Shown: positions 48,877 through 64,000 of the stretch, piece after piece | How the letters are laid out: the number at the start of each line of letters is the position of its first letter | How positions within the stretch are numbered: position 1 is the first letter of the stretch | From: Escherichia phage vB_EcoM_ESCO47 | Sequence record: OM386662.1 | Reading direction: 5' to 3' (one strand) | DNA length: 64,000 bases | Made by a program: the position numbers and the translations under genes | The notes under the pieces: generated by a model | Database searches by the model: none | What the model was told of the DNA's origin: nothing | What the model saw: only the letters and a program-made list of their open reading frames with translations

Positions 48877-48885
48877 GGAAATTGA

Positions 48886-49233: not shown

Positions 49234-49236
49234 CGA

Positions 49237-49271
49237 TTTACAAACTCTTGGGAGTAGAGTATAATACTCCC
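49237..49271 (+). promoter_or_regulatory. Sigma70-type promoter with -10 embedded in a palindrome (second copy)
   Basis: TTTACA-N17-TATAAT; inverted repeat GGGAGTA / TACTCCC with compensatory changes relative to copy at 21218. Confidence 0.5.
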
Positions 49272-49308
49272 AATGGATAATAAAATTTTAATTACCGAGG
49301 AAATTGAT

Positions 49309-49865: not shown

Positions 49866-49879
49866 TCGATAGTATCTCG

Positions 49880-49917
49880 TGCTTTAAGACGGGTCTTCAA
49901 ATATTATGATATAATAG
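49880..49917 (+). promoter_or_regulatory. Promoter upstream of gene 55 (class uncertain)
   Basis: TGCTTTA box-like element, TGATATAAT extended -10 and CCTATGAA start region. Confidence 0.35.
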
Positions 49918-49944
49918 ACCTATGAATTGAGCCAAGAGGTACTT

Positions 49945-50505: not shown

Positions 50506-50707
50506 CATCTCTAATTTTTTAGAAGAACCATTTGATGAAGCATTACCTTATTCCGTAAAAATGTTGGGTCGAGAAGCATTTAAAATTAATTTCGATATCG
50601 ACCCTTTAAATCCACATGACGTATCCTTTTCAATTAATGGACAAGAAGTTGAGTACACGTTTAGTATTGAAGAGGATGGACGTTTTTATTTTAATTTGAT
50701 GAGATAA
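50489..50707 (+). CDS. Hypothetical protein
   Basis: 72-aa ORF overlapping gene 55 end; start uncertain. Confidence 0.35.
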
Positions 50708-50708
50708 T

Positions 50709-51074
50709 ATGAATACCGAGATTATTGAAAGCGCTGAACATAAATTGGCTAAAGAATTTGAAGAAATTCGTGAAGCCGAAAACAAAGAAGCCGAAGATAA
50801 AGTAGCCAAAATGCTACAAGAAATCCAAAAGAAAAATGAAGCTGAAGCCGCTAAGAAAGCCGAAAAGATTCTTAAAAAGAATCGCGGTGAACTCAACCGT
50901 CTTTATGCTCATGCGCAAGAAGCTGCAATTCAAAATAACTTCGAAGCTTATGAATACGCTATTAAAAAATCTCGTGATATTCTGCGTCAACCTTACACCG
51001 ACGAATTGATTAAAATTCAGTGGGTTACCACTCGTCAGGCTATTGAGGATATCATTAATGGCATTAGTAAATAA
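50709..51074 (+). CDS. Hypothetical helical protein
   Basis: 121-aa ORF, Glu/Lys/Ala-rich. Confidence 0.45.
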   Translation: MNTEIIESAEHKLAKEFEEIREAENKEAEDKVAKMLQEIQKKNEAEAAKKAEKILKKNRGELNRLYAHAQEAAIQNNFEAYEYAIKKSRDILRQPYTDELIKIQWVTTRQAIEDIINGISK

Positions 51075-51258
51075 ACCATTTAAACGGCTTCTAGTAGGAG
51101 CCGCTTTTAGACTTCGCTCTTATGGTGATATTTGTATCAAGCAGTCCGAAACCGAATACAAAATGATTGGACGTACGTCTGATGGTATTTTTCAGATTGA
51201 GCCTGTAGCGAAGGTATGGGTAGATTCACATCAACTTAAAAAATGGTGGCAGCGTTGA
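51058..51258 (+). CDS. Hypothetical protein
   Basis: Start MALVNKPF with GAGGA RBS; followed by intrinsic terminator. Confidence 0.4.
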   Translation: MALVNKPFKRLLVGAAFRLRSYGDICIKQSETEYKMIGRTSDGIFQIEPVAKVWVDSHQLKKWWQR

Positions 51259-51266
51259 ATAATTTA

Positions 51267-51293
51267 AAGGAAGCACTAGTGCTTCCTTTTTTT
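51267..51293 (+). terminator. Intrinsic terminator
   Basis: AGGAAGCAC-TA-GTGCTTCCT palindrome followed by TTTTTTT. Confidence 0.7.
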
Positions 51294-51317
51294 GCTTTCT
51301 ATACGGGATGATAGAAT
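51291..51317 (+). promoter_or_regulatory. MotA-dependent middle promoter candidate (genes 47/46)
   Basis: TTTGCTTTC, 12 bp, -10 TAGAAT; directly after terminator. Confidence 0.45.
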
Positions 51318-51341
51318 GAATTATCTTAATGAGGAAATGAT

Positions 51342-52361
51342 ATGAAAATTTTGCAATTAGGTGACTTCCATATCGGGGTCAAACAAGACGACCCATGGGT
51401 TCAAGATATTCAGCGTGACGGCATTCGACAAGCAATTGAGTATTCTAAGAAAAACGGAATTAACACATGGATTCAATATGGTGATTGGTTTGATGTCCGT
51501 AAAGCAATAACACATCGCACAATGGAATTTAACCGTGAACTGGTCAACATGATTACTAAAGCTGGTATTCGTGTCCATGTAACTATCGGGAATCATGACA
51601 TTGCGTTCAAGAATACAATAACACCAAATACGGTTTCTGAACTACTTACCCAATTTGAAAACTTTACAATCTATGAACATCCAACTACAGTAGATTTCGA
51701 CGGTTGTCTTATTGATATTATTCCATGGATGTGTGAAGAGAATACAGGCGAAATCTTAGAACATATCAAAACGAGTTCAGCCGCGTATTGTGTTGGGCAC
51801 TGGGAACTGAATGGCTTTTATTTCTATAAAGGAATGAAGTCTCATGGGCTTGAACCTGATTTCTTAAAGACTTATAAACAAGTCTGGTCCGGCCACTTCC
51901 ACACAATCTCTGAAGCTGCTAACGTCAAATATATTGGGACACCATGGACCCTTACTGCAGGTGATGAGAATGATCCTCGCGGATTCTGGGTATTTGACAC
52001 TGATGTTGAACGTATGGAATTTATTCCTAATGAAACAACATGGCATCGACGAATCACTTATCCGTTTAAAGGCAAAATCAATTATTCTGATTATACTAAT
52101 CTAGCCGTACGTGTTATAGTATCAGAAATTGATTCAGAGTTGACTAAGTTTGAATCTGAACTTGAAAAAGTAGTTCACTCTCTTCGTATGGTTTCTAAAG
52201 TTGATAACAGTGTTGAATCTGATGACGACCAGGAAATCGAGATTAAATCACTTCAAGATATCATTAAAGAATATATTGACGCGATTCCAGATATCTCGGA
52301 CGAAGACAGAGAAGCGCTGGTCAAATATTCCAACGAACTTTATATTGAGGCAACACAATGA
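51342..52361 (+). CDS. 47: Recombination endonuclease subunit gp47 (Mre11-like)
   Basis: MKILQLGDFHIGVKQDDPWVQ...; phosphoesterase motifs GDxHxG, GNHD; 339 aa as T4 gp47. Confidence 0.95.
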   Translation: MKILQLGDFHIGVKQDDPWVQDIQRDGIRQAIEYSKKNGINTWIQYGDWFDVRKAITHRTMEFNRELVNMITKAGIRVHVTIGNHDIAFKNTITPNTVSELLTQFENFTIYEHPTTVDFDGCLIDIIPWMCEENTGEILEHIKTSSAAYCVGHWELNGFYFYKGMKSHGLEPDFLKTYKQVWSGHFHTISEAANVKYIGTPWTLTAGDENDPRGFWVFDTDVERMEFIPNETTWHRRITYPFKGKINYSDYTNLAVRVIVSEIDSELTKFESELEKVVHSLRMVSKVDNSVESDDDQEIEIKSLQDIIKEYIDAIPDISDEDREALVKYSNELYIEATQ

Positions 52362-52615
52362 CTTTAGATGAATTTAACAATGCTGGACTCAGGCTTGAAG
52401 TTGAAATGGACGTTAAAGATGATGATGGATTCGAGAACACTATCAAGTATTGGATTGAGCCATTACGCGTTGAAGGCAATGAAGTTAAAGCAGTTCATGT
52501 CTGCACCGACTGGGCTATTGAATTTAGCTTTAATATAATGGACGACGATACTCCTGGCTCTATTCTTAAAATGGCTGAAGCATGTATCAAGGATGCGTAT
52601 AATGACGAAGACTGA
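52358..52615 (+). CDS. Hypothetical protein (T4 46.2 position)
   Basis: 85-aa ATGA-coupled ORF. Confidence 0.45.
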   Translation: MTLDEFNNAGLRLEVEMDVKDDDGFENTIKYWIEPLRVEGNEVKAVHVCTDWAIEFSFNIMDDDTPGSILKMAEACIKDAYNDED

Positions 52616-52841
52616 TTATGAAATCCATCGTCATGAATTTAGTATTGATGACGGTTATATTGGTGTCGTTGAATGGACTGAGAATTACGAGGAGACAACT
52701 CCTCGTTTCTTTGGAACAATGTATGTTACCTGTGAGTACGCACCGGGTGTTGTTATGTATGCAGAACTAGATGAATATTTTGCTGATAGAGATGACATGT
52801 TAAAATATGTAGAGGACTTCATTCGAAGAGAATACATATGA
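52593..52841 (+). CDS. Hypothetical protein (T4 46.1 position)
   Basis: 82-aa ORF with AAGGA RBS. Confidence 0.45.
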   Translation: MRIMTKTDYEIHRHEFSIDDGYIGVVEWTENYEETTPRFFGTMYVTCEYAPGVVMYAELDEYFADRDDMLKYVEDFIRREYI

Positions 52842-54526
52842 AATCATTTAAATTAAATCGTGTTCGTTATAAAAATATAATGTCTGTTGGGCAAAATTTT
52901 ATCGATATCCAATTAGATAAAGTCCAAAAGACCTTAATCACAGGTAAAAATGGTGGTGGTAAATCTACGATGTTAGAAGCCATCACTTTTGGACTTTTCG
53001 GCAAACCATTTCGTGATGTTAAGAAAGGACAAATCATTAATAGCACGAACAAGAAAGAGCTCTTAGTTGAGCTTTGGATGGAATTCGATGATAAAAAATA
53101 CTTCATCAAACGAGGTCAAAAGCCCAATATTTTCGAAATCTCCGTTGACGGTGTTCGTCTCGATGAATCTGCCAGCAGTCGTGACTTCCAAGAAGAATTT
53201 GAACGTAGCATCGGAATGTCCTATGCGTCTTTTAAACAAATCGTCGTTCTTGGTACAGCAGGGTATACCCCTTTCATGGCTCTTAGCACCCCAGCTCGTA
53301 GAAAACTTGTCGAAGACCTTTTAGAAGTCGGCACACTCGCTGAAATGGATAAAATCAATAAGTCTCAAGTTCGCGAACTTAATTCCCGGGGGCAAGTTCT
53401 CGATGCCAAGAAAGATGGTGTTATCCAACAAATTAAGATTTATAATGAGAATATCGAACGTCAAAAGAAATTATCCGGTGATAATGTAGCTCGTCTACAG
53501 AATATGTATGATGACCTGGCTAAAGAAGCTCGGTCATTAAAAGCAGAAATCGAAGAAGCTAATGAGCGACTACTTAATATCGTTCTTGACGAAGACCCTA
53601 CTGAGGCATTCAACAAGATAGGACAAGAAGCATTATTGATTAAATCTAAAATTGACTCATATAACAAAGTTATTAAGATGTATCATGACGGCGGTACATG
53701 TCCTACTTGTGCATCACAGTTGCACCAGGGTGATCCTATTGTCTCTAAGATTACCGATAAGCTTCATGAATGTAATCACTCATTCGAGCAACTTACCTGT
53801 CACAGAGATAATCTGAGTGTCCTAGTGGACGAATATAGAGCTAATGTTAAGACTAAACAGGACCTTGCATCTGATATTCGTACCAAGAAACAAGCAATGA
53901 TTGCCACTATTGATAAAGCTAAGAAAGTTAAAGCTGCAATAGAGCAAGCCTCAGCAGAATTTATCGACCATGCCGATGAGATAGCTTTGCTTCAAAAAGA
54001 ACTTGATAAAATCATTAAAACAAAATCGGATATCGTTCTTGAAAAATACCATCGTGGTATTATCACAGATATGTTAAAAGATTCTGGTATTAAAGGTGCT
54101 ATCATTAAAAAATATGTGCCTCTGTTCAACAAGCAGATTAACCATTACCTTAAAATCATGGAAGCTGATTACGTGTTTTCTATTGATGAAGAATTCAATG
54201 AATCTATAAAATCCCGTGGTCGTGAAGATTTTAGTTATGCTTCATTTAGCCAAGGTGAAAAAGCACGTATTGATATCGCTTTATTGTTCACATGGCGAGA
54301 TATTGCTGAAAAGGTTTCTGGTGTTAGAATCAATACATTAATTATGGACGAAGTCATGGATTCCGCGACTGATTCTGAAGGTATTAAAGCTATTTCAACA
54401 ATTCTTAACTCTCTAACCGATGCAAACGTGTTTATAATTAGTCACAGAGACCATGACCCACAAGCTTATGGACAACATCTTCAAATGAGCAAAGTTGGAC
54501 GATTTACTGTAATGAAAGCCTCTTAA
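52838..54526 (+). CDS. 46: Recombination endonuclease subunit gp46 (Rad50/SbcC-like ATPase)
   Basis: Walker A GKNGGGKST, long coiled coil with CPTC zinc hook, signature SQGEKARIDIAL, Walker B LIMDEV; 562 aa. Confidence 0.95.
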   Translation: MKSFKLNRVRYKNIMSVGQNFIDIQLDKVQKTLITGKNGGGKSTMLEAITFGLFGKPFRDVKKGQIINSTNKKELLVELWMEFDDKKYFIKRGQKPNIFEISVDGVRLDESASSRDFQEEFERSIGMSYASFKQIVVLGTAGYTPFMALSTPARRKLVEDLLEVGTLAEMDKINKSQVRELNSRGQVLDAKKDGVIQQIKIYNENIERQKKLSGDNVARLQNMYDDLAKEARSLKAEIEEANERLLNIVLDEDPTEAFNKIGQEALLIKSKIDSYNKVIKMYHDGGTCPTCASQLHQGDPIVSKITDKLHECNHSFEQLTCHRDNLSVLVDEYRANVKTKQDLASDIRTKKQAMIATIDKAKKVKAAIEQASAEFIDHADEIALLQKELDKIIKTKSDIVLEKYHRGIITDMLKDSGIKGAIIKKYVPLFNKQINHYLKIMEADYVFSIDEEFNESIKSRGREDFSYASFSQGEKARIDIALLFTWRDIAEKVSGVRINTLIMDEVMDSATDSEGIKAISTILNSLTDANVFIISHRDHDPQAYGQHLQMSKVGRFTVMKAS

Positions 54527-55239
54527 TGAGGCTTATGTTTACAGTTATCAAAATGCCAACGATGCATATTAGCAGGGATCCCTATTTTATCGCAATGAGG
54601 ACATTTAATTTTCTTGTCCTCTTTTTTCTTTCTGTTAGGATTTGATTTACAGAATTTTATATGCGGCTTTAACGCCGATAACTTAGTAGTTAAGCCACAA
54701 AACGGGCAAGAATCTTCTTTCCAAATTTTCGTGGCCATGGTTTTAATTATTTTATCCTTTGTTTCTTGATCAAGTTTTACTATTTTAGGCGTAGGGCCTT
54801 GTTTACAGTTATCAAAATGCCAACGTCTCATGTTTCCTTCAGTGCCAGTTAAACCGCAGTGTGGACATGTAATCTTTGGTTTATTTTTTGCAGACTCGGA
54901 CATTTTCTTACGAGTTTCAGCAGTGAATTCTTTGTTCTTTTGAACTTCTTGATTCTTACGTCGAAGCCATCCAAATAATTTGTTTTTGCTTCTATCTGCT
55001 TTAGGAGATGAGATAGTCATCATACGAGCAGCATATATTAAAGAGGCATTATCTGGATGGATTTTTACTAGCAGTTGATGTGCCAAATAATGTTCTTCTG
55101 GTGTTAAATCTACTAAGTTTAAAGCATCATCACTTCCACCTAAACATTGTGGTATAATGTAATGACGTTCTGTATAACCATCTAAACTTCTTGATTTAGC
55201 ATTGGTGATAAGCTTTTCGTATATTGAGTTATAATTCAT
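54523..55239 (-). CDS. Free-standing HNH homing-endonuclease-like protein with triple zinc-finger repeats
   Basis: N-terminal HNH-like ERHYIIPQCLGGSDDALNLVDLTPEEHYLAH; three CPHCG...WHFDNCK repeats; opposite strand to neighbours; AAGGA RBS. Confidence 0.7.
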   Translation of the reverse strand: MNYNSIYEKLITNAKSRSLDGYTERHYIIPQCLGGSDDALNLVDLTPEEHYLAHQLLVKIHPDNASLIYAARMMTISSPKADRSKNKLFGWLRRKNQEVQKNKEFTAETRKKMSESAKNKPKITCPHCGLTGTEGNMRRWHFDNCKQGPTPKIVKLDQETKDKIIKTMATKIWKEDSCPFCGLTTKLSALKPHIKFCKSNPNRKKKEDKKIKCPHCDKIGIPANMHRWHFDNCKHKPH

Positions 55240-55284
55240 TTACTAAATCCTTATTTGATACAGCAACAGATAAATTGATAAACC

Positions 55285-55292
55285 TATTTATA
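55285..55292 (-). promoter_or_regulatory. T4 late promoter (HNH endonuclease gene)
   Basis: TATAAATA on minus strand 46 nt upstream of the HNH gene start. Confidence 0.5.
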
Positions 55293-55318
55293 TTGCTTTA
55301 AACACGGAGATTTATAAT
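55293..55318 (+). promoter_or_regulatory. MotA-dependent middle promoter candidate (45.2/rpbA/45)
   Basis: TTGCTTTA, 12 bp, -10 TATAAT. Confidence 0.4.
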
Positions 55319-55508
55319 GGCTGAATTTTCAACCGGACAACAACTTCTAGCTGTTCCAGAAATTAAAAAATATGTTCTGACTAATACCTTTTCAGGTGAA
55401 GAACATATTGTTACTGAAGAAATGCTCAAAAATGCTTTTAAAAATGAGTATTATAAAATAATGTCTAATCGTTCAAATGCTTTTATTGTTAGCGACTACT
55501 ATGACTAA
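55317..55508 (+). CDS. Conserved hypothetical protein (T4 45.2 position)
   Basis: 63-aa ORF; synteny. Confidence 0.5.
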   Translation: MAEFSTGQQLLAVPEIKKYVLTNTFSGEEHIVTEEMLKNAFKNEYYKIMSNRSNAFIVSDYYD

Positions 55509-55521
55509 AGAGAGAAATAAT

Positions 55522-55938
55522 ATGTTTACTACTGCTAAAGGTTTTACTGCTGCTGATCTGAAAGTTACTTCTATTCGTACTGACGCTAACCCACATAACC
55601 GGAATCGTGTTCGTAAAGCATGGGTCCTGCATTGTGATGATGTAAGCGCTAAGAAACTTCAGTCTCTGCCACAAGAAATTAAATTCATGCTGTATGGTTT
55701 CATTGATAATGATGTTTCCGATAAGTGGATCGAACTAATGCGCAAACATCGTGAAAATGCTATCGCAGCTGGTGGTAAAATGATTCTAGATAAAGATGGT
55801 TCAGAACGATTGGAAGACTTCTATTGTGTAGACTCAAATGACCAACTTATTGCAGCCGGTGAAATTGTAGCTGCTAAGATTCCAGAATATATTGAAACAC
55901 TGCCTGAAGCTATTAAAAAGCAAATGGTTGCTGCATAA
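55522..55938 (+). CDS. rpbA: RNA polymerase binding protein RpbA
   Basis: Position immediately upstream of gene 45 as in T4; start set at MFTTAKG with AAGAGAG RBS. Confidence 0.55.
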   Translation: MFTTAKGFTAADLKVTSIRTDANPHNRNRVRKAWVLHCDDVSAKKLQSLPQEIKFMLYGFIDNDVSDKWIELMRKHRENAIAAGGKMILDKDGSERLEDFYCVDSNDQLIAAGEIVAAKIPEYIETLPEAIKKQMVAA

Positions 55939-55987
55939 TATTTTTGATATAAAATAAACTTCTTGATTTGAATTGAAAGGAAATAAA

Positions 55988-56674
55988 ATGAAACTGACTA
56001 AAGACACCATCGCTATTCTTAAAAACTTTGCTTCCATTAACTCTGGTGTCATGCTTACTCCAGGTAAGTTTATTATGACTCGGGCTATTAACGGAACCAC
56101 ATATGCTGAAGCAACTATTACTGACGAAATTGATTTTGAAGTTGCTCTTTATGACCTTAACAGTTTTTTAAGTATTCTGAGTCTTGTTTCTGATGATGCA
56201 GAAATTTCTATGAATGAAGACGGTAATATTAAAATCGCCGACACTCGTTCTACTGTTTACTGGCCAGCCGCAGACAAGAGTACAATCGTATTCCCTAACA
56301 AACCAATTCAGTTCCCGGTAGCATCGGTTATCACTGAAATTAAAGCTGAAGACCTTCAGCAATTGCTTCGAGTTTCACGTGGACTCCAGATCGATACAAT
56401 TGCTATCACTAATAAAGATGGTAAAATCGTTGTAAATGGTTATAACAAAGTTGAAGACTCTGGTCTTACTCGTCCTAAGTATTCTTTGACTCTGACTGAT
56501 TATGATGGTTCTAATAACTTCAACTTTGTAATCAATATGGCTAACATGAAAATTCAACCAGGCAATTACAAAGTTATGCTCTGGGGAGCTGGTGATAAAG
56601 TTGCAGCCAAGTTCGAAAGCTCTCAAGTTAGTTATGTTATTGCAATGGAAGCTGATTCCACTCACGATTTCTAA
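55988..56674 (+). CDS. 45: Sliding clamp gp45
   Basis: MKLTKDTIAILKNFASINSGVMLTPGKFIMTRAINGTTYAEA... matches recalled T4 gp45; 228 aa. Confidence 0.95.
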   Translation: MKLTKDTIAILKNFASINSGVMLTPGKFIMTRAINGTTYAEATITDEIDFEVALYDLNSFLSILSLVSDDAEISMNEDGNIKIADTRSTVYWPAADKSTIVFPNKPIQFPVASVITEIKAEDLQQLLRVSRGLQIDTIAITNKDGKIVVNGYNKVEDSGLTRPKYSLTLTDYDGSNNFNFVINMANMKIQPGNYKVMLWGAGDKVAAKFESSQVSYVIAMEADSTHDF

Positions 56675-56700
56675 GCTTTACGTTTAATATGTTATGATTT

Positions 56701-56723
56701 GGAGGAGAAATCCTCCACTTTTT
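56701..56723 (+). terminator. Hairpin plus T-run between genes 45 and 44 (attenuator candidate)
   Basis: GGAGGA-GAAA-TCCTCC followed by ACTTTTTG. Confidence 0.5.
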
Positions 56724-56741
56724 GATAATGAGGAAAATTAT

Positions 56742-57704
56742 ATGATTACCATCAATTCCAAAGAACACATTCTAGAACAGAAATATCGTCCTTCTTCCAT
56801 TGACGAATGTATTCTGCCTGCGTATGACCATGAAACATTCAAGTCTTTAGTATCTAAAGGAAAACTTCCTCATATTATTTTGCACTCTCCTTCTCCTGGC
56901 ACAGGTAAAACAACCGTAGCAAAAGCATTATGTAATGATATCAATGCAGAAATGATGTTCGTCAACGGTTCTGATTGTAAGATTGATTTTGTGCGTGGCC
57001 CGTTAACTGCATTCGCTCGTTCAGTCTCAATGGAAGGCAAGCCTAAAGTTATTGTTATTGATGAATTTGACCGTAGTGGCCTCGCCGAATCACAACGTCA
57101 CCTTCGTACGTTTATGGAAGAATTCTCTAGTAACTGCTCTATTGTTATTACTGCTAACAACATCGATGGAATTATTGAACCATTACGTAGTCGTTGTCGA
57201 GTTATCGAATTCGGACGTCCAACCGAAGAAGATAAAATCTCAATGATGAAGAAAATGATTCATCGTATGGTTGAAATCTGTAAGAATGAAAATATCGAAA
57301 TCGCTGATATGAAAGTTGTTGCAGCTCTGGTTAAAAAGAACTTCCCGGACTTTCGTCGTACAATCGGTCAATTAGACCAGTACTCGTCTAAAGGTGTTCT
57401 TGATGCTGGTATTTTGTCTATCGTAACTAATGACCGTGGCACGGTCTCTGATGTTATCGAAGCAATGAAGAACAAAGATATCAAACAGCTTCGTGCATTA
57501 GCTCCAAAATACGCTGCAGATTATTCATGGTTCATCGATAAATTAGTTTCAGAATGTTATGACCAAGTTGCACCTGGTAAAAGTATTATTTCGCTTTATG
57601 AAATCGCAGGCGAAAATAATAAGTTTCATGGATTAGCAAGTAATATTGAATTACATGTTATGTATATGCTTCTTCAACTGACCTGTGAACTGACTTGGAA
57701 ATAA
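56742..57704 (+). CDS. 44: Clamp loader large subunit gp44
   Basis: Walker [15 protein letters not shown] Walker B, SRC motif LRSRC; start set at [11 protein letters not shown]. Confidence 0.95.
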
Positions 57705-57705
57705 T

Positions 57706-58269
57706 ATGAACTTATTCGATGATGACGTCCGGCTTAACGAGCACCAAATTGCATGGAAGTCTAATGACGCTGATGCGATTCAAAAATGTGCTGATATGTT
57801 TAAAGAAAAACCTGAGAATGAATTCTTTAAAATCATTAATGCTATTAATGAAAAGAAATCTATGTCAATTGCTCAGGTCGACTACTCAAAATTTATGGTT
57901 GAGAACTCATTATCCCAGTTCCCAGAATGTATGCCAGCTGTTTACATGATGAACTTAGTCGGTTCTGAATTAAGTGATGAAGCGCACTTCAACTATATGA
58001 TGGCGGCAATTCCGCGCGGTCGTCGATTCTCTAAATGGGCTAAACTAGTCGAAGACACTTCAGAGTTACTAGTTATCAAACTGTTGATGAAACATTACAC
58101 AATCAACATGAATGATGCTACAGAGTATAAGCGGCTCCTTGAAAAAAATAACAAGTTGCCAATAGTCCTTAAAGAACTGAAGGCCATGGTCACTGATGAA
58201 TTTCTCAAAGAAGTTACCAAAAACGTGAAAGAACAAAAACAATTTAAAAAAATAGCATTGGAATGGTAA
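57706..58269 (+). CDS. 62: Clamp loader small subunit gp62
   Basis: 187 aa as T4 gp62; coupled to gene 44. Confidence 0.9.
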
Positions 58270-58271
58270 AA

Positions 58272-58640
58272 ATGATTGAAATTAAATTGAAGAACCCTGA
58301 AGATTTTCTGAAAGTCAAAGAGACTTTGACCCGTATGGGCATCGCTAATAACAAGGATAAAGTCCTTTACCAGTCTTGTCATATCCTCCAAAAGCAAGGT
58401 AAGTATTATATCGTCCACTTTAAAGAAATGTTGCGTATGGATGGACGTCAGGTTGATATTGACGGTGAAGACTATCAGCGACGTGATTCGATTGCCCAGT
58501 TGCTTGAAGACTGGGGATTGATTGTTATTGAAGACTCTGCTCGTGAAGATCTATTTAGCCTGACTAATAACTTCCGAGTTATCTCTTTTAAACAGAAAGA
58601 TGACTGGACTTTGAAAGCAAAATATACAATTGGTAATTAA
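58272..58640 (+). CDS. regA: Translational repressor RegA
   Basis: MIEIKLKNPEDFLKVKETLTRMGIANNKDKVLYQSCHILQKQGKYYIVHFKEMLRMDGRQV matches recalled T4 RegA; 122 aa. Confidence 0.9.
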   Translation: MIEIKLKNPEDFLKVKETLTRMGIANNKDKVLYQSCHILQKQGKYYIVHFKEMLRMDGRQVDIDGEDYQRRDSIAQLLEDWGLIVIEDSAREDLFSLTNNFRVISFKQKDDWTLKAKYTIGN

Positions 58641-58644
58641 AGCA

Positions 58645-58662
58645 ATGGGACTTCGGTCCCAT
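58645..58662 (+). other. C(UUCG)G tetraloop RNA hairpin
   Basis: ATGGGAC-TTCG-GTCCCAT directly after regA stop, upstream of gene 43. Confidence 0.6.
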
Positions 58663-58722
58663 TTGGAGTATAATGTCTATAACAACAAACAAAGACAATA
58701 ACTCGTCTATAAAGGAAAAATA

Positions 58723-61434
58723 ATGCAAGAATTTTATTTGACAGTAGAACAGATTGGTGACTCAATTTTCGAACGTTATATCGATTCTAACGGTCGTGAA
58801 CGTGTTCGTGAAGTAGAGTATAAGCCATCATTGTTTGCACATTGTCCCGAAAGTCAGGCTACAAAATATTTTGATATCTATGGTAAACCATGTACTCGTA
58901 AGTTATTCGCTAATATGCGTGACGCATCTCAGTGGATTAAACGCATGGAAGATATCGGTCTTGAAGCATTAGGTATGGACGATTTTAAATTGTCTTATAT
59001 CAGTGATACGTATCCGGTTGATATCAAATACGACCATACTAAAATTCGTGTAGCGAACTTTGACATCGAAGTAACATCTCCTGACGGGTTCCCTGAGCCG
59101 TCACAAGCAAAACATCCTATTGATGCTATCACTCATTATGACTCAATTGATGACAGGTTTTATGTATTTGACCTTTTGAATTCTCCATATGGTAATGTAG
59201 AAGAATGGTCTATCGAAATTGCGGCTAAGCTTCAAGAACAAGGCGGTGATGAAGTTCCATCCGAAATTATCGACAAAATTGTTTATATGCCGTTTGATAA
59301 TGAAAAAGAATTATTGATGGAATATCTCAATTTCTGGCAACAGAAAACTCCTGTCATTTTAACCGGATGGAACGTTGAGACATTTGATATTCCATATGTG
59401 TATAACAGAATCAAGAATATTTTTGGTGAATCCACAGCAAAACGGTTGTCACCACATCGCAAGACTCGTGTTAAAGTTATTGAAAACATGTATGGTTCAC
59501 GAGAAATCATTACATTGTTTGGTATCTCTGTTCTTGATTATATCGACCTTTACAAAAAGTTCTCTTTCACGAACCAACCGTCATATTCTCTGGACTATGT
59601 TTCAGAATTTGAATTGAATGTTGGTAAACTGAAATACGACGGTCCTATTTCTAAACTTCGCGAAAGTAATCATCAACGATATATAAGCTATAACATCATC
59701 GACGTATATCGTGTATTGCAAATTGATGCTAAACGCCAGTTCATTAACTTGAGCTTGGACATGGGTTATTATGCTAAAATTCAGATTCAATCTGTGTTCA
59801 GTCCAATTAAAACTTGGGACGCTATTATTTTTAATAGCCTTAAAGAACAAAACAAGGTGATTCCACAAGGTCGTTCGCATCCAGTTCAACCTTACCCGGG
59901 TGCTTTTGTTAAGGAACCTATTCCAAATCGATACAAATATGTGATGAGCTTCGACCTCACATCTCTGTATCCAAGCATCATTCGCCAAGTGAATATTAGC
60001 CCAGAAACAATAGCAGGAACGTTTAAAGTAGCTCCATTACATGATTATATTAACGCTGTTGCTGAACGTCCTTCTGATGTGTACAGTTGTTCTCCTAACG
60101 GCATGATGTATTATAAAGACCGTGACGGTGTTGTTCCAACTGAAATCACTAAAGTCTTTAATCAACGTAAAGAACATAAAGGTTATATGCTTGCGGCTCA
60201 ACGTAATGGTGAAATAATTAAAGAGGCCTTACATAATCCTAATCTTTCTGTTGATGAACCATTAGATGTTGATTATCGTTTTGACTTCACTGACGAGATT
60301 AAAGAAAAGATTAAAAAGTTGTCTGCTAAATCTCTTAATGAAATGTTGTTTAGAGCTCAACGTACTGAAGTTGCAGGTATGACTGCACAAATTAACCGTA
60401 AATTGCTCATCAACTCGCTTTATGGTGCACTTGGAAACGTTTGGTTCCGTTATTACGATTTGCGTAATGCAACTGCAATCACAACATTCGGTCAAATGGC
60501 TTTACAATGGATTGAACGTAAAGTTAATGAATATCTTAACGAAGTTTGTGGTACACAAGGCGAAGCTTTCGTTCTATATGGTGATACAGACTCCATTTAC
60601 GTATCTGTAGATAAAATTATTGATAAGGTTGGTGAATCTAAATTCCGCGATACTAACCATTGGGTAGACTTCTTAGATAAGTTCGCTCGTGAACGTATGG
60701 AACCTGCTATTGATAGAGGTTTCCGTGAAATGTGCGAATACATGAATAATAAGCAACATTTGATGTTCATGGACCGAGAAGCTATCGCTGGGCCTCCGCT
60801 TGGTTCTAAAGGTATTGGTGGATTCTGGACTGGTAAGAAACGTTATGCATTAAACGTGTGGGATATGGAAGGAACCAGATACGCTGAACCTAAGCTTAAA
60901 ATCATGGGTCTCGAAACACAGAAATCTTCGACTCCTAAAGCAGTACAGAAAGCTCTTAAGGAATGTATTCGTCGTATGCTTCAGGAAGGCGAAGAATCAT
61001 TACAAGAATATTTTAAAGAGTTTGAAAAAGAGTTCCGTCAGCTGGATTATATTAGCATCTCATCAGTGTCATCGGCAAATAACATTGCTAAATATGATGT
61101 CGGTGGATTCCCAGGTCCTAAATGTCCATTCCATATTCGTGGAATTCTGACATATAACCGAGCTATCAAAGGTAATATTGATGCTCCACAAGTTGTAGAA
61201 GGTGAAAAGGTATACGTTCTGCCTTTACGTGATGGAAACCCGTTCGGTGATAAATGTATCGCATGGCCATCTGGTACAGAAATCACTGATTTGATTAAAG
61301 ACGACGTGCTTCGTTGGATGGACTACACTGTTCTCCTTGAGAAGACATTTATTAACCCACTTGAAGGATTCACGTCAGCAGCGAAACTCGATTATGAGAA
61401 GAAAGCATCTCTGTTCGATATGTTCGATTTTTGA
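58723..61434 (+). CDS. 43: DNA polymerase gp43 (family B)
   Basis: 903 aa; exo motifs FDIE, YNIIDV; pol motifs DLTSLYPS, YGDTDS; sequence near-identical to recalled RB69 gp43. Confidence 0.97.
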   Translation: MQEFYLTVEQIGDSIFERYIDSNGRERVREVEYKPSLFAHCPESQATKYFDIYGKPCTRKLFANMRDASQWIKRMEDIGLEALGMDDFKLSYISDTYPVDIKYDHTKIRVANFDIEVTSPDGFPEPSQAKHPIDAITHYDSIDDRFYVFDLLNSPYGNVEEWSIEIAAKLQEQGGDEVPSEIIDKIVYMPFDNEKELLMEYLNFWQQKTPVILTGWNVETFDIPYVYNRIKNIFGESTAKRLSPHRKTRVKVIENMYGSREIITLFGISVLDYIDLYKKFSFTNQPSYSLDYVSEFELNVGKLKYDGPISKLRESNHQRYISYNIIDVYRVLQIDAKRQFINLSLDMGYYAKIQIQSVFSPIKTWDAIIFNSLKEQNKVIPQGRSHPVQPYPGAFVKEPIPNRYKYVMSFDLTSLYPSIIRQVNISPETIAGTFKVAPLHDYINAVAERPSDVYSCSPNGMMYYKDRDGVVPTEITKVFNQRKEHKGYMLAAQRNGEIIKEALHNPNLSVDEPLDVDYRFDFTDEIKEKIKKLSAKSLNEMLFRAQRTEVAGMTAQINRKLLINSLYGALGNVWFRYYDLRNATAITTFGQMALQWIERKVNEYLNEVCGTQGEAFVLYGDTDSIYVSVDKIIDKVGESKFRDTNHWVDFLDKFARERMEPAIDRGFREMCEYMNNKQHLMFMDREAIAGPPLGSKGIGGFWTGKKRYALNVWDMEGTRYAEPKLKIMGLETQKSSTPKAVQKALKECIRRMLQEGEESLQEYFKEFEKEFRQLDYISISSVSSANNIAKYDVGGFPGPKCPFHIRGILTYNRAIKGNIDAPQVVEGEKVYVLPLRDGNPFGDKCIAWPSGTEITDLIKDDVLRWMDYTVLLEKTFINPLEGFTSAAKLDYEKKASLFDMFDF

Positions 61435-61475
61435 TATAATGCCATGGACGGCAAACTAACCTAAATGAGAGAAAT

Positions 61476-62108
61476 ATGAAAACCACTCCTATTACTATCG
61501 CAATTGACGCAATCGTAAAGCAAGCTTCATCTCTGGCTACTATGGCTAAAGTAATTAGTCAAAATTCAGCTCGATACAATGCCATTCTTGAAACCTTGCG
61601 ACGTCCTGGTCTGAGTAATTATGAAAGTCGTGTAATTATTACCGGTGTCGGTAAAAATGCTAATATCGCAACTAAAGCTTCTGAAACATTTGCTTCACTC
61701 GGTATCCCGAGTATGTACTTGAACACTGGGCATTATTCTCACGGTGATGCAGGATTCATTGCGCCTAATGATGTGTTGATTCATATTAGTCGTTCTGGTA
61801 AAACTGAAGAAATGATTGGCGTGGCTAAGCATCTTAAAATGATTCGTCCGAACGTCAAACAGATTCTGTTGCATTGTAACCCGGACATTCCACAAGAAAA
61901 TGAAGCCCTTTTTGATTACTCTTTCTGTACAGGCATCGCAGTAGAGGTTGATGAGAATTCTCTGGCTCCGACTATGTCAACTACATTGTTGTTAGCGCTT
62001 ATCGATACGTTTGCTATCAACCTTTCATCTGAACGTGGATTTACCTCTAATGACTTCCTTAAGTTCCACCCTGGTGGTGCACTAGGTGCCATGTTACGAG
62101 GCGAATAA
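61476..62108 (+). CDS. SIS-domain sugar-phosphate isomerase (arabinose-5-phosphate isomerase KdsD/GutQ-like, no CBS domains)
   Basis: ITGVGKNANIATKASETFASLGIPS...SHGDAGFIAPNDVLIHISRSGKTEE...FLKFHPGGALG resembles KdsD SIS-domain motifs; ends where KdsD CBS domains would begin. Confidence 0.65.
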   Translation: MKTTPITIAIDAIVKQASSLATMAKVISQNSARYNAILETLRRPGLSNYESRVIITGVGKNANIATKASETFASLGIPSMYLNTGHYSHGDAGFIAPNDVLIHISRSGKTEEMIGVAKHLKMIRPNVKQILLHCNPDIPQENEALFDYSFCTGIAVEVDENSLAPTMSTTLLLALIDTFAINLSSERGFTSNDFLKFHPGGALGAMLRGE

Positions 62109-62251
62109 TGAAAGCAATAGCAATAGGACTTTTACTATTGATGCTTGTTATGACTATCTACTGGAGCTTAACTGCTCCAGTAATGGTTCCGACTCTTATA
62201 ATCGGATGGATTATGATTGGACTACAAGCAAAGTATGAATGCTTTAACTAG
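62108..62251 (+). CDS. Small hydrophobic peptide (47 aa)
   Basis: TAATG-coupled; two TM-like segments; below ORF-track cutoff. Confidence 0.3.
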   Translation: MKAIAIGLLLLMLVMTIYWSLTAPVMVPTLIIGWIMIGLQAKYECFN

Positions 62252-62292
62252 AATAGTGTACAATACTCCTACTTACCAATGAGGACCACAAC

Positions 62293-63978
62293 ATGAAAAA
62301 AGCTGTTATTCTTGGTGCTGGACTGGCAACTCGTTTGTATCCAATAACGCATCATATTCCTAAGGTGCTTGTTAACTATAAACAAGACACTATTCTGAGC
62401 AATTTGTATACAATTTATTCTGATCTTGGCGCAGACGAAATTATTGTAGTAGTTCATTCAAAATTTGCTGAAACTGTTCGAGCTTATTGTGAGCAAGAAG
62501 GGTTCAATGTGACTATTCGTACAGTTGATGAAGCGTATGGATCTGCTTATGCTCTTGCTAAATTACACAAAGATTTAGACGGCCATAATGTAATTGTTAA
62601 CTGGTGTGATATTATTCCTGATTTTGGTTCATGGTCATGGAATGTTAACGCAATCTATGTTAAGGGCGACGAATGTCGATATAATTTCGACGGTGAAAAT
62701 ATCACTAACGTAGGTTCAACAGGTGGTAATGTTGTAGGAATTTATCAGTTCAAAGACTGGGAATTCTATATGGGTTCTACCGATGAGGAAATTCATGAAT
62801 ACTGCAAAGGACGTGATTTCGTAGAATTCCTTTACGGCAGCGCATTCAATAAATCAGAGCTTATGAATCTAATTGATTTAGGTGATATGCCTAAACTTGA
62901 AAAAGCTCATGAAGTTCGTGAACTTAATCGTAGTTTTAATGCAGTTGAAATTGGTGAAGAAACTGTAACTAAATTCGCATTAACCGAACAGGGTCGAGCT
63001 CTTCAGAAAGATGAGATTTCATGGTATCTTAAAGTGAAATCAGATTCAGTTCCTCAGTTAGTTTCTGTTAATGAAAATAACTTTGAAATGGAACGCATTA
63101 AAGGTAGGCCGGCATTTGAATATATTAAATCCAAATCAAGTCTTGCTCGTCCACAAATTGTTGATGCAATTTTAGATGCACTGAAATTCAGCACAGACAC
63201 TTATTTTGTAAGTCCTGAAACTGTTCGTCGTGATTTCACTAAAGAATTCTATACTAAAGTTATTGATCGTTGTGAAAGCATTCAACCATTGATTGATTCA
63301 TTTGGTAAAATCACACATGTGAACTACACCAAGATTGGACGTCTGAAGCCAATGCTGAAACAAGCTTTAGAACACCTTATTCGTTATCATAACCGTTCTC
63401 AGGGACAGTACTCTGTTATTCATGGTGACCCGAACTTCAGTAATACTATGATTACTGATAACGGCGAAGTCAAGTTTATCGACCCTCGTGGATATTTTGG
63501 CGAAACCAAGATTTACGGCCCGAAATTGTATGATGAAGCTAAAGTGCTTTATGCTGTTTCAGGTTATGATGAATTCAATGCTAATCCGACCTGGGGGCAG
63601 TTTACTATTGATGAAACAACTTGTAATGTGTCTATTAACATCAATCCATTAGTTTACAAATATGGAAAGATGAGTTCGTTTAACGAGTATCATCATTTGG
63701 CAGTGGCAATTATCTGGATTGCATTAGGTGGTTATTTCAAGAATAATCCACTTAAAGCGGTAGCCGCATATTATAAAGGTATGGAACTTCTGACTAAGCA
63801 ATTACGTAACATGGGCCGTGTACTTCAGGACGGCTCTATTAGTTATGACGTAGCAGAACCTGTAACGGCTACACTGATTACAAAAAATCCTGGTAAATGG
63901 GTACTAACTGATAAAGAAACTGGTGTTTCCTATCGTCCAATCGGTGGCGATATCACTCATCAATGGGAACGAATCTAA
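62293..63978 (+). CDS. Bifunctional sugar-1-phosphate nucleotidyltransferase / sugar kinase (APH-fold) fusion
   Basis: N-terminus MKKAVILGAGLATRLYPITHHIPKVLV = NTP-transferase signature; C-terminus HGDPNFSNTMI...IDPRGYFG = aminoglycoside/choline-kinase-type catalytic loop. Confidence 0.65.
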   Translation: MKKAVILGAGLATRLYPITHHIPKVLVNYKQDTILSNLYTIYSDLGADEIIVVVHSKFAETVRAYCEQEGFNVTIRTVDEAYGSAYALAKLHKDLDGHNVIVNWCDIIPDFGSWSWNVNAIYVKGDECRYNFDGENITNVGSTGGNVVGIYQFKDWEFYMGSTDEEIHEYCKGRDFVEFLYGSAFNKSELMNLIDLGDMPKLEKAHEVRELNRSFNAVEIGEETVTKFALTEQGRALQKDEISWYLKVKSDSVPQLVSVNENNFEMERIKGRPAFEYIKSKSSLARPQIVDAILDALKFSTDTYFVSPETVRRDFTKEFYTKVIDRCESIQPLIDSFGKITHVNYTKIGRLKPMLKQALEHLIRYHNRSQGQYSVIHGDPNFSNTMITDNGEVKFIDPRGYFGETKIYGPKLYDEAKVLYAVSGYDEFNANPTWGQFTIDETTCNVSININPLVYKYGKMSSFNEYHHLAVAIIWIALGGYFKNNPLKAVAAYYKGMELLTKQLRNMGRVLQDGSISYDVAEPVTATLITKNPGKWVLTDKETGVSYRPIGGDITHQWERI

Positions 63979-64000
63979 TGCACCGTGTAGAAAACATGCT

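What the first reader, a model, noticed from the sequence alone, without database searches (positions are those of the whole stretch)
62293..63978. Unusual nucleotidyltransferase-kinase fusion (561 aa)
The N-terminal 110 residues carry a canonical NTP-transferase motif (GAGLATRLYPIT, PKVLV); the C-terminal half carries the APH/choline-kinase catalytic loop (HGDPNFSNTMI, IDPRGYFG). Kinase plus pyrophosphorylase fusions of this type perform salvage-style activation of a free sugar (for example AmgK-MurU, LicA-LicC, Fkp), implying the substrate is a free sugar or amino sugar phosphorylated at C1 and then nucleotidylated. Which sugar and which nucleotide is open.
Basis: partly seen in the sequence, partly recalled or inferred. 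Interest (0 to 1): 0.7.

Follow-up and report, generated by a model that had tools for sequence, protein, structure and literature searches.

The report
Phage UDP-arabinose synthesis enzyme (AfhE)
This gene is real and is a kinase fused to a sugar-nucleotide-forming enzyme, but it is already known: it matches, at 97% identity, the phage enzyme AfhE, which makes UDP-arabinose so that RB69-like phages can coat their DNA cytosines with arabinose and escape bacterial restriction.

Summary
An intact 561-codon ORF at 62293..63978 (+) carries the quoted motifs at residues 8-19, 23-27, 377-387 and 396-403. A high-confidence AlphaFold2 model (pLDDT 94.5) shows a complete sugar-1-phosphate nucleotidyltransferase fold (about residues 1-205) followed by an APH/choline-kinase-type fold (about 210-505).

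The window comes from an RB69-like T-even phage (Mosigvirus). The protein is 97% identical over its full length to the corresponding protein of phage HY126, in the same gene order. It corresponds to the single 561-residue RB69 protein ORF53_52c (gp52:53) described in 2018.

A 2026 NAR paper, citing He et al. (Nat Chem Biol 2026), calls the HY126 enzyme AfhE. [quoted passage not shown] The UDP-arabinose is used to arabinosylate 5-hydroxycytosine in phage DNA.

The "free sugar salvage" detail is probably wrong. The substrate is arabinose 5-phosphate, made by the isomerase encoded just upstream. The logic resembles the heptose pathway GmhA-HldE-GmhB rather than AmgK-MurU.

The sugar and nucleotide are no longer open questions. 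Novelty: already known. Interest: low.

The parts
61476..62108 (+). Arabinose-5-phosphate isomerase. It has a SIS domain only, of the KpsF/GutQ/KdsD type, with no CBS domains. It corresponds by position and annotation to RB69 gp55. It supplies D-arabinose 5-phosphate from ribulose 5-phosphate.
   Evidence: Pfam SIS E 1e-10. PHROG 5670 'arabinose 5-phosphate isomerase' E 8e-116. NCBIfam KpsF/GutQ E 2e-32 and KdsD E 6e-31, both below the equivalog cut-offs. Same position as in HY126 and DLP3. The role is as proposed in PMC13326640 section 27.
62108..62251 (+). Conserved 47-aa hydrophobic ORF (MKAIAIGLLLLMLVMTIYWSLTAPVMVPTLIIGWIMIGLQAKYECFN). Its ATG overlaps the isomerase stop codon (TAATG). Function unknown, and its membership of the pathway is unproven.
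   Evidence: ORF list and sequence. PHROG 3610, unknown function, E 1e-26, full length. Annotated at the same position in HY126 and 308Ecol101PP.
62281..62285 (+). Shine-Dalgarno sequence GAGGA, 7 nt upstream of the ATG at 62293.
   Evidence: Read directly from the sequence.
62293..63978 (+). The finding itself: a 561-aa bifunctional enzyme, orthologue of HY126 AfhE, RB69 ORF53_52c (gp52:53) and DLP3 gp82.
   Evidence: ORF. 545/562 identical to HY126 XAN60479.1. 57% identical to DLP3 gp82. PHROG 4098 full length, E 4e-295. AlphaFold2 pLDDT 94.5, pTM 0.91.
62293..62907 (+). N-terminal sugar-1-phosphate nucleotidyltransferase domain (about residues 1-205). Reported function: arabinofuranose-1-phosphate + UTP gives UDP-D-arabinofuranose + PPi.
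   Evidence: Pfam NTP_transferase E 8.6e-10. Foldseek matches over about 220-260 alignment columns: MurU 4y7v (TM-score normalised to target 0.71), LicC 1jyl (0.68), IPCT 2xme (0.72), and RmlA. Profile search against PDB sequences gives HddC (6jq8) as best hit, E 6e-14. G10, R14, K24, D106, D195 and D198 are invariant in 49 homologues.
62920..63807 (+). C-terminal APH/choline-kinase-type (eukaryotic-like) kinase domain (about residues 210-505). Reported function: D-arabinose 5-phosphate + ATP gives arabinose 1,5-bisphosphate.
   Evidence: Foldseek on the C-terminal model: APH(2'')-IIa 3ham E 1e-7; ethanolamine and choline kinases; LicA 4r77; macrolide phosphotransferases. Brenner-type motif H377-G-D379-x4-N384 and D397-P-R-G. 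K227 and E241 are invariant.
63808..63975 (+). C-terminal tail of about 55 residues (506-561), modelled partly as beta strands. Present in most T4-like phage homologues and absent from several distant ones. Role unknown.
   Evidence: Model secondary structure, pLDDT 81-90. Alignments to P0085 and P0076 end near residue 497-504. The PTm1 match ends at residue 502.
63978..64000 (+). Start of the HAD-type phosphatase gene (homologue of the HY126 protein at the AfhF position, and of RB69 gp51). Its ATG overlaps the TAA of the finding (TAATG). The gene is cut off by the window end.
   Evidence: The seven codons readable in the window, MHRVENM, are identical to the start of the HY126 128-aa protein. 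That protein hits NCBIfam TIGR01689 'capsule biosynthesis phosphatase' at E 4e-13. The role is as in PMC13326640 section 27.

Best explanation
The ORF is the Mosigvirus orthologue of phage HY126 AfhE (RB69 ORF53_52c, also called gp52:53). It is a two-domain enzyme that makes UDP-D-arabinofuranose, the donor used to arabinosylate 5-hydroxycytosine in phage DNA.

Proposed steps:
1. The SIS isomerase encoded upstream (61476-62108), or host KdsD/GutQ, converts ribulose 5-phosphate to D-arabinose 5-phosphate.
2. The C-terminal APH/choline-kinase-type domain uses ATP to phosphorylate C1, giving arabinose 1,5-bisphosphate.
3. The small HAD phosphatase, whose gene overlaps the stop codon (63978 onward), removes the 5-phosphate.
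4. The N-terminal nucleotidyltransferase domain condenses arabinofuranose 1-phosphate with UTP to give UDP-Araf and PPi.
5. Phage GT-B arabinosyltransferases, encoded outside this window, transfer arabinose to 5-hydroxycytosine in DNA. This protects the DNA from restriction enzymes.

Shown here: ORF integrity, both folds, conservation of catalytic-type residues, 97% identity and shared gene order with HY126, and conserved linkage to a phosphatase and a thymidylate-synthase homologue. Taken from the literature: the substrate, the bisphosphate intermediate and UTP. No enzyme activity was tested here.
For: Identity and gene order:
- 545/562 identity to the HY126 protein. 14 of the 17 differences fall in residues 228-272, and none touches an invariant residue.
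- Identical gene order in HY126: DNA polymerase, isomerase, 47-aa ORF, this gene, HAD, U32, ThyA-like, GT, kinase, uvsX. The order is similar in DLP3.

Literature:
[quoted passage not shown] It also states that AfhF is a Mg2+-dependent phosphatase acting on the bisphosphate. RB69 gp52:53 and DLP3 gp82 are named as the analogous enzymes.
- RB69 and Mosigvirus NP DNA carry arabosylated 5-hydroxycytosine, in mono- and di-arabinosyl forms.

Folds and catalytic residues.

Context across distant relatives:
- A phosphatase always follows directly or is fused. It belongs to four different kinds: a small HAD, a Hydrolase_3 HAD, a histidine phosphatase, and a fused beta-phosphoglucomutase-like HAD.
- A thymidylate-synthase homologue follows in the phage contexts where the annotation or a Pfam hit identifies it (for HY126, PHROG 160).
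- In giant-virus-like contigs, HAD, SIS, nucleotidyltransferase and kinase are one polypeptide.

Genetics: the Thanatos homologue TH1_060 (54% identical) is essential for phage growth.
Against: - The primary biochemical paper (He et al. 2026, doi 10.1038/s41589-026-02150-z) is not held. The substrate, the order of steps and the nucleotide therefore rest on a secondary citation.
- Table 1 of PMC13326640 still carries the older labels 'Phosphorylates Ara to Araf1p' and 'dephosphorylates Araf5p to Ara'. This conflicts with that paper's own text.
- Purified TH1_060 showed no pyrophosphorylase activity on xylose 1-phosphate with any NTP. That sugar is not the expected substrate, however.
- No activity was measured for this exact protein.
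- The rest of the cluster (phosphatase body, hydroxylase, transferases) lies beyond the window end. It is inferred only from relatives that are about 97% identical.
Confidence: 0.87

Rival explanations
1. Free-sugar (salvage-type) route, as the first reader proposed and as the 2025 preprint hypothesised. The HAD phosphatase first strips arabinose 5-phosphate to free D-arabinose. The kinase domain then phosphorylates the free sugar at C1. The nucleotidyltransferase domain then makes NDP-arabinose.
For: - The preprint 10.1101/2025.06.16.659550 proposed exactly this route.
- Table 1 of the published version still carries these labels.
- The kinase fold belongs to the APH/choline-kinase superfamily, which by general knowledge also includes anomeric kinases of free sugars (NahK, AmgK).
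Against: - The published text, citing in vitro work on HY126, says AfhE phosphorylates arabinose 5-phosphate to the 1,5-bisphosphate and that AfhF acts on the bisphosphate.
- According to that paper, the phosphatase's structural relatives include heptose-1,7-bisphosphate 7-phosphatase.
- Removing a phosphate and then spending ATP to add another is no cheaper than the bisphosphate route, and it releases a free pentose. This point is inference.
- Neither NahK nor AmgK appears among the top 50 Foldseek hits for the kinase domain.
Confidence: 0.09
2. The same architecture, but a different sugar or nucleotide in this particular phage. Examples: CDP- or GDP-arabinose, or activation of xylose, ribose or a deoxypentose.
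For: - Fold hits include cytidylyl-, guanylyl-, thymidylyl- and uridylyltransferases, without discrimination between them.
- The preprint stated that UDP versus CDP was unclear from structure alone.
- The Thanatos authors reported a deoxypentose on cytosine.
Against: - 97% identity to the HY126 enzyme, which is reported to make UDP-D-arabinose.
- A dedicated arabinose-5-phosphate isomerase sits next door.
- Mosigvirus DNA (RB69, NP) contains arabinose, shown by MS and NMR.
Confidence: 0.03
3. The protein is itself a DNA glycosyltransferase: a GT-A-like N-terminal domain transfers the pentose to cytosine. This was considered for RB69 ORF053c and for Thanatos TH1_060.
For: [quoted passage not shown]
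- The Thanatos authors keep TH1_060 as a glycosyltransferase candidate.
Against: - The N-terminal domain carries the nucleotidyltransferase signature G-x-G-x-x-R...K. It matches the sugar-1-phosphate nucleotidyltransferases MurU, LicC, RmlA and HddC over the whole domain.
- TH1_060 showed no transfer of xylose to DNA, dCMP, dCTP or cytosine.
- Separate GT-B arabinosyltransferases exist in the cluster. The DLP3 ones are marked in Table 1 as confirmed experimentally.
Confidence: 0.01

Closest known systems
AfhE of Escherichia phage HY126 (XAN60479.1 by position and homology; He et al., Nat Chem Biol 2026, as cited in PMC13326640)
   Same: 97% identical over the full length (545/562). Same two-domain architecture. 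Same gene order, with the isomerase upstream and the HAD phosphatase overlapping downstream.
   Different: 17 residue differences including one indel, 14 of them in a patch at residues 228-272 in the kinase N-lobe. No invariant residue is affected. The mapping of the name AfhE to XAN60479.1 is by homology and position, because the primary paper could not be read.
RB69 ORF53_52c, also called gp52:53 (Thomas et al. 2018, PMC6024577; Lee et al. 2026, PMC13326640)
   Same: [quoted passage not shown] It was proposed in 2018 as a UDP-arabinose synthesis candidate. It was modelled in 2026 with the same top structural hits (MurU 4y7t, LicC 1jyk/1jyl, APH 3ham) as found here.
   Different: In the RB69 GenBank record the gene is split into two ORFs by a one-base sequencing error. 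Here the ORF is intact.
Acinetobacter phage DLP3 gp82 and Shewanella phage Thanatos TH1_060
   Same: Full-length homologues, 57% and 54% identical. All invariant residues that were checked are conserved in DLP3. TH1_060 is essential for phage growth.
   Different: Different phage genera and hosts. DLP3 DNA is tri-arabinosylated. The Thanatos modification was reported as a deoxypentose and the activity of TH1_060 was not found in vitro.
NDP-heptose pathway GmhA - HldE (or HddA + HddC) - GmhB
   Same: Identical pathway logic: SIS isomerase, then a C1 kinase acting on a sugar phosphate, then a HAD phosphatase removing the distal phosphate from the bisphosphate, then a nucleotidyltransferase. HldE is also a bifunctional kinase/nucleotidyltransferase. 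HddC is the best PDB profile hit for the N-terminal domain. GmhB-like hits are reported for the phosphatase. The pathway description comes from established knowledge.
   Different: The HldE/HddA kinases have ribokinase (PfkB) or GHMP folds, not the APH/choline-kinase fold. The HldE transferase domain is of the cytidylyltransferase type. The substrate is a heptose rather than a pentose. This is analogy, not orthology.
AmgK-MurU, LicA-LicC and Fkp
   Same: MurU and LicC share the N-terminal fold (TM-score normalised to target about 0.7). LicA shares the kinase fold. By general knowledge AmgK belongs to the same kinase superfamily, but it was not among the hits. All of these couple a kinase with a nucleotidyltransferase.
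   Different: Those systems act on free, unphosphorylated substrates (MurNAc, choline, fucose) and need no phosphatase. AmgK/MurU and LicA/LicC are separate proteins. By general knowledge, the Fkp kinase domain is a GHMP fold.

Membership tests
[quoted passage not shown] | Full-length sequence homology to the characterised member (HY126) | tested here: met
   545/562 identical over the full length. PHROG 4098 match at E 4e-295, covering positions 1-559 of 559.
[quoted passage not shown] | One chain with an N-terminal sugar-1-phosphate nucleotidyltransferase fold and a C-terminal APH/choline-kinase-type fold | tested here: met
   AlphaFold2 models with pLDDT 94.5 and 94.1. Foldseek hits to MurU, LicC and RmlA for the N-terminal domain. 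Foldseek hits to APH(2''), choline kinase and LicA for the C-terminal domain.
[quoted passage not shown] | Catalytic-type residues of both domains retained | tested here: met
   G10, R14, K24, D106, K227, E241, D379, N384 and D397 are invariant in 49 homologues, and H377 is at least 90% conserved. All are identical in HY126 and DLP3. Their catalytic roles are assigned by analogy to the two superfamilies, not by experiment.
[quoted passage not shown] | Gene neighbourhood: arabinose-5-phosphate isomerase, a phosphatase directly downstream, and a ThyA-like 5-hydroxy-dCMP synthase and arabinosyltransferases nearby | tested here: inconclusive
   The isomerase and the first 7 codons of the phosphatase lie in the window and match HY126. 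The rest lies beyond the window end and is seen only in relatives about 97% identical.
[quoted passage not shown] | Enzyme activities: arabinose 5-phosphate to the 1,5-bisphosphate, and arabinose 1-phosphate + UTP to UDP-arabinose | not testable with these tools
   Known only from the literature for HY126, through PMC13326640. The primary paper is not held.
Free-sugar salvage pairs (AmgK-MurU, LicA-LicC, Fkp) | The kinase acts on an unphosphorylated substrate, so no phosphatase step is required | tested here: not met
   Tested by context only. A phosphatase gene is directly downstream or fused in every context examined; in the Dhakavirus locus the downstream 127-aa protein was taken to be the HAD by size and position only. 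The literature reports arabinose 5-phosphate as the kinase substrate. Direct substrate preference was not measured.
Free-sugar salvage pairs (AmgK-MurU, LicA-LicC, Fkp) | Fold relationship to MurU/LicC (transferase) and to LicA/AmgK-type kinases | tested here: met
   MurU 4y7v (0.71) and LicC 1jyl (0.68), TM-scores normalised to target. LicA 4r77 at E 5e-5. This shows a shared superfamily only, with 12-19% sequence identity.
HldE-type bifunctional heptose kinase/adenylyltransferase | PfkB (ribokinase-like) kinase domain plus a cytidylyltransferase-like transferase domain | tested here: not met
   No PfkB or cytidylyltransferase-family hit appears in the Pfam, NCBIfam or Foldseek lists. The similarity is one of pathway logic only.
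GlmU (the annotation given to this gene in some GenBank records) | N-terminal uridylyltransferase plus a C-terminal left-handed beta-helix acetyltransferase | tested here: not met
   NCBIfam GlmU models match only residues 3-106, at 16-23 bits against cut-offs of 367-718. The C-terminal half has a kinase fold. The 'GlmU' labels (JK45, O157 typing phage 6) are misannotations.

The most novel reading that the evidence does not exclude
The intermediate must leave this protein's kinase site, be dephosphorylated by a separate phosphatase, and return to the same protein's transferase site. The three enzymes (isomerase, this protein, phosphatase) may therefore work as a physical complex that channels arabinose phosphates.

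The single-chain HAD-SIS-transferase-kinase proteins on giant-virus-like contigs and in a slime-mould transcriptome would be the covalent version of that complex. They would also imply that NDP-D-arabinose is made well outside T4-like phages. The conserved but unexplained C-terminal tail (residues 506-561) and the conserved 47-aa hydrophobic ORF could be parts of such an assembly.
Probability: 0.15. Interest if true: 0.4.

Novelty: already known. Interest (0 to 1): 0.15.

Why it matters
The enzyme is biologically notable. It lets a T4-like phage build a nucleotide sugar (UDP-D-arabinofuranose) that its E. coli host is not known to make, starting from the host's Kdo precursor, arabinose 5-phosphate. 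The sugar is used to coat every cytosine, blocking restriction enzymes and possibly CRISPR nucleases.

That story has already been told for RB69, HY126, DLP3 and related phages (2018-2026). Re-finding it here adds another Mosigvirus carrying an intact copy.

The practical value is in annotation. Most GenBank records still call this gene 'hypothetical protein', 'GlmU', 'nucleotidyl transferase' or 'capsular polysaccharide biosynthesis protein'. The neighbouring phosphatase is labelled 'phosphoheptose isomerase' or 'haloacid dehydrogenase'.

Tried and rejected
1. Hypothesis that the C-terminal tail (506-561) docks the small stand-alone HAD phosphatase.
- The tail is absent where the phosphatase is of another kind: the giant-virus fusion, PTm1 with a histidine phosphatase, and P0082/P0086 with a 179-184-aa Hydrolase_3 protein.
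- However, P0076 lacks the tail and is still followed by a small HAD 62% identical to the HY126 one. The hypothesis is rejected.

2. Search for a solved structure of this family.
- Neither phmmer nor a 49-sequence profile found one in the PDB. Only generic nucleotidyltransferases and a marginal RIO2 kinase hit (E 0.067) came up.

3. Reading the primary papers.
- He et al. 2026 and Mahler et al. 2025 are not held.
- Text searches for HY126, AfhE and ara-hC found only citing papers.

4. Fold-search libraries.
- The kinase domain could therefore not be ranked against NahK, AmgK or glucosamine kinase beyond the Foldseek PDB list.

5. Promoter and terminator scan of 58000-64000.
- It gave no more sites than shuffled sequence, so no transcription signals are claimed.

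6. The 'GlmU' and 'glycosyltransferase' annotations were considered and rejected (see the membership tests and rival explanations).

7. Pocket-level comparison was not possible, because model coordinates are not exposed.
Full report
**1. Observation**

The ORF at 62293..63978 (+) is intact and encodes 561 residues.
- GAGLATRLYPIT, residues 8-19
- PKVLV, residues 23-27
- HGDPNFSNTMI, residues 377-387
- IDPRGYFG, residues 396-403

A GAGGA ribosome-binding site lies 7 nt upstream of the ATG. The stop codon overlaps the ATG of the next gene, as TAATG.

Pfam supports the N-terminal nucleotidyltransferase above its curated threshold (NTP_transferase, E 8.6e-10, 39 bits against 21.2). The match covers only the first 100 residues. 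All kinase-type Pfam hits (Fructosamin_kin, EcKL, RIO1, APH) fall below their thresholds. On sequence alone the kinase half was therefore a reasonable guess, not a demonstrated fact.

**2. What the window is**

The surrounding genes form the T4-type replication module:
- gp47 and gp46 homologues
- a homing endonuclease on the opposite strand
- the sliding clamp and clamp-loader subunits
- RegA
- a 903-aa family-B DNA polymerase ending at 61434

Megablast of 61400-64000 finds 171 phage records, almost all Escherichia or Shigella Mosigvirus (RB69-like). The listed full-length matches are about 97% identical. Over 20 kb the best records are only about 92% identical. The window is therefore a somewhat divergent Mosigvirus carrying a well-conserved copy of this locus.

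**3. Structure**

A 49-sequence alignment of homologues reaching down to 28% identity gave an AlphaFold2 model with pLDDT 94.5 and pTM 0.91.

Foldseek against the PDB matched residues 1 to about 220 to whole-domain sugar-1-phosphate nucleotidyltransferases. TM-scores below are normalised to the target:
- MurU 4y7v, 0.71
- LicC 1jyl, 0.68
- CTP:inositol-1-phosphate cytidylyltransferase 2xme, 0.72
- RmlA and GDP-mannose pyrophosphorylases

The transferase domain is therefore complete, not just a 100-residue motif.

These hits masked the rest of the protein, so residues 205-561 were modelled separately (pLDDT 94.1). Foldseek on that model gave:
- APH(2'')-IIa 3ham, E 1e-7, probability 1.00
- ethanolamine and choline kinases
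- macrolide and capreomycin phosphotransferases
- LicA 4r77

This is the APH/choline-kinase (eukaryotic-like kinase) fold.

Residues of catalytic type are invariant across all 49 homologues:
- G10, R14, K24, D106, D195 and D198 in the transferase
- K227, E241, D379, N384 and D397 in the kinase, with H377 at least 90% conserved

Several basic residues are also invariant (R213, R326, R399, K417, K488). That would suit an anionic substrate, but this is inference.

No member of this family has a solved structure detectable by sequence. The best profile hit is HddC, the heptose-1-phosphate guanylyltransferase (E 6e-14).

**4. Identity**

tblastn finds full-length homologues in 363 phage records. 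They include:

| Phage | Identity |
|---|---|
| HY126 (PP658200.1) | 97% |
| Acinetobacter phage DLP3 | 57% |
| Shewanella phage Thanatos-1 | 54% |
| Serratia phage 92A1 | 52% |
| Dhakavirus phages | 43% |

A direct comparison with the HY126 protein gives 545/562 identities. Of the 17 differences, 14 lie in one patch at residues 228-272. No invariant residue is touched.

HY126 has the same gene order: DNA polymerase, arabinose-5-phosphate isomerase, a 47-aa ORF, this gene, a 128-aa HAD protein, a U32 peptidase-like protein, a thymidylate-synthase homologue, a glycosyltransferase-sized protein, a thymidylate-kinase-like protein, and uvsX. The seven codons of the next gene readable at the window end (MHRVENM) are identical to the HY126 HAD protein.

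**5. Literature**

- Thomas et al. 2018 (PMC6024577) showed that RB69 ORF053c and ORF052c are one 561-residue protein, split in GenBank by a sequencing error. With the neighbouring isomerase, they proposed it as a candidate for UDP-arabinose synthesis.
- Lee et al. (NAR 2026, PMC13326640) showed that RB69 and DLP3 DNA carry mono- to tri-arabinosylated 5-hydroxycytosine.
- Lee et al. modelled RB69 gp52:53 and obtained the same top hits found here (4y7t, 1jyk/1jyl, 3ham).
- Citing He et al. [quoted passage not shown]
- They also state that AfhF is the Mg2+-dependent HAD phosphatase converting arabinose 1,5-bisphosphate to arabinose 1-phosphate.
- The 2025 preprint of the same paper had proposed the free-arabinose route instead. 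Table 1 of the final version still carries those older labels.
- The Thanatos homologue TH1_060 is essential for phage growth. It showed no activity on xylose 1-phosphate.
- Mosigvirus NP also has mono- and di-arabinosylated cytosines.
- The primary papers (He et al. 2026; Mahler et al. 2025) are not held. The reaction order and nucleotide therefore rest on a secondary source.

**6. Independent context evidence for the mechanism**

The upstream gene (61476-62108) is a SIS-only member of the KpsF/GutQ/KdsD arabinose-5-phosphate isomerase group.

In every context examined, a phosphatase gene follows this gene directly or is fused to it. The phosphatase is of four different kinds:
- A small HAD of 111-128 aa, confirmed by sequence in HY126, L011 and L012. 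In DLP3 it is gp81, described as HAD-like in PMC13326640. In the Dhakavirus locus it is assumed from size and position.
- A 179-184-aa Hydrolase_3-type protein.
- A histidine phosphatase in Tenacibaculum phage PTm1.
- A fused beta-phosphoglucomutase-like HAD in 890-955-aa proteins.

The fused proteins also contain a SIS domain that is 33% identical to the phage isomerase, and a transferase-kinase part that is 35% identical to this protein.

A thymidylate-synthase homologue follows the phosphatase in the phage contexts where the annotation or a Pfam hit identifies it (for HY126, PHROG 160).

Replacement of the phosphatase by unrelated families, while the linkage is kept, argues that a dephosphorylation step is integral to the pathway. 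By itself this does not fix the order of steps.

The logic (isomerase, C1 kinase on a sugar phosphate, bisphosphate phosphatase, nucleotidyltransferase) is that of the GmhA-HldE-GmhB NDP-heptose pathway, built here from different folds. The Dhakavirus locus has no isomerase gene nearby. This is consistent with use of host KdsD/GutQ, which is inference.

**7.

The free-sugar salvage analogy is probably wrong, and the 'open' questions have published answers.

**8. Novelty and score**

Already known. The gene is an orthologue, 97% identical, of a biochemically characterised enzyme, and it corresponds to a protein discussed in RB69 since 2018. Interest is low (0.15).

What remains unexplained:
- the C-terminal tail of about 55 residues
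- the conserved 47-aa hydrophobic ORF
- whether the enzymes form a complex

The giant-virus-like single-chain versions are the most interesting side observation. They lie outside the window.

Noticed in passing
window 62108-62251 (+): A conserved 47-aa, strongly hydrophobic ORF sits between the isomerase and the finding, and its ATG overlaps the isomerase stop codon. It matches PHROG 3610 (unknown function, E 1e-26). It is labelled 'putative phosphosugar isomerase' in OR062945.1, which is very unlikely for a peptide this small and hydrophobic.
   Followed up: partly
L004 6001-8781 (GCA_013558355.1 contig JACCDH010973257.1); also P0088, P0089, P0091, P0092: Proteins of 890-955 aa combine HAD, SIS, nucleotidyltransferase and kinase in one chain, so the whole ribulose-5-phosphate-to-NDP-arabinose route would sit in one polypeptide. 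P0085 lies beside a MutS-HNH gene and an RNA polymerase Rpb2 gene, a giant-virus-like context. P0091 comes from the Ceratiomyxa fruticulosa (slime mould) transcriptome.
   Followed up: partly
L007 (Tenacibaculum phage PTm1), L009, L010, L011, L012: The phosphatase directly downstream of the homologue is replaced by unrelated types: a histidine phosphatase, a 179-184-aa Hydrolase_3 protein, or a small 111-128-aa HAD. The order kinase-transferase, then phosphatase, then thymidylate-synthase homologue is kept where the third gene could be identified.
   Followed up: partly
window 62974-63108 (residues 228-272 of the finding): 14 of the 17 differences from HY126 AfhE, including the single indel, cluster in this 45-residue patch of the kinase N-lobe. 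The rest of the protein is nearly identical. This looks like a small recombination mosaic or a fast-evolving surface loop.
   Followed up: no
window 63808-63975 (residues 506-561): The C-terminal tail is conserved in most T4-like phage homologues but absent from P0076, P0082, P0086, PTm1 and the giant-virus fusions. Its presence does not track with the type of phosphatase neighbour.
   Followed up: yes
window 54523-55239 (-): A 238-aa HNH-type homing endonuclease (PHROG 655, E 3e-64) with repeated zinc-finger-like CPHC...RWHFDNCK motifs lies on the opposite strand to all its neighbours. It sits between the gp46 homologue and the small genes that precede the sliding-clamp gene.
   Followed up: partly
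GenBank records under hits H5, H26, H39, H40, H62; PHROG 1238: Annotation of this locus is inconsistent. The finding is called 'GlmU', 'nucleotidyl transferase', 'capsular polysaccharide biosynthesis protein' or 'hypothetical protein'. The HAD phosphatase is called 'phosphoheptose isomerase' (the PHROG 1238 label) or 'haloacid dehydrogenase'.
   Followed up: partly
L008 (Dhakavirus vB_EcoM_005) 4194-7057: The Dhakavirus homologue (43% identical) is followed by a 127-aa protein, presumably the small HAD. It has no SIS isomerase gene nearby; imm and a 166-aa hypothetical protein lie upstream instead. This suggests reliance on the host's arabinose-5-phosphate isomerases.
   Followed up: no
window 15904-16635 (+): A deoxynucleoside monophosphate kinase (PHROG 139, E 2e-59) is encoded here. 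In RB69 the corresponding enzyme (gp159) is reported to phosphorylate 5-hydroxy-dCMP, so it belongs to the same DNA-modification pathway although it lies 46 kb away.
   Followed up: no
window 44000-64000 compared with 61400-64000: The closest phage records are only about 92% identical over the last 20 kb, with about 91% coverage. The isomerase and kinase-transferase locus is about 97% identical to many records. The arabinose genes are therefore more conserved than their surroundings.
   Followed up: no
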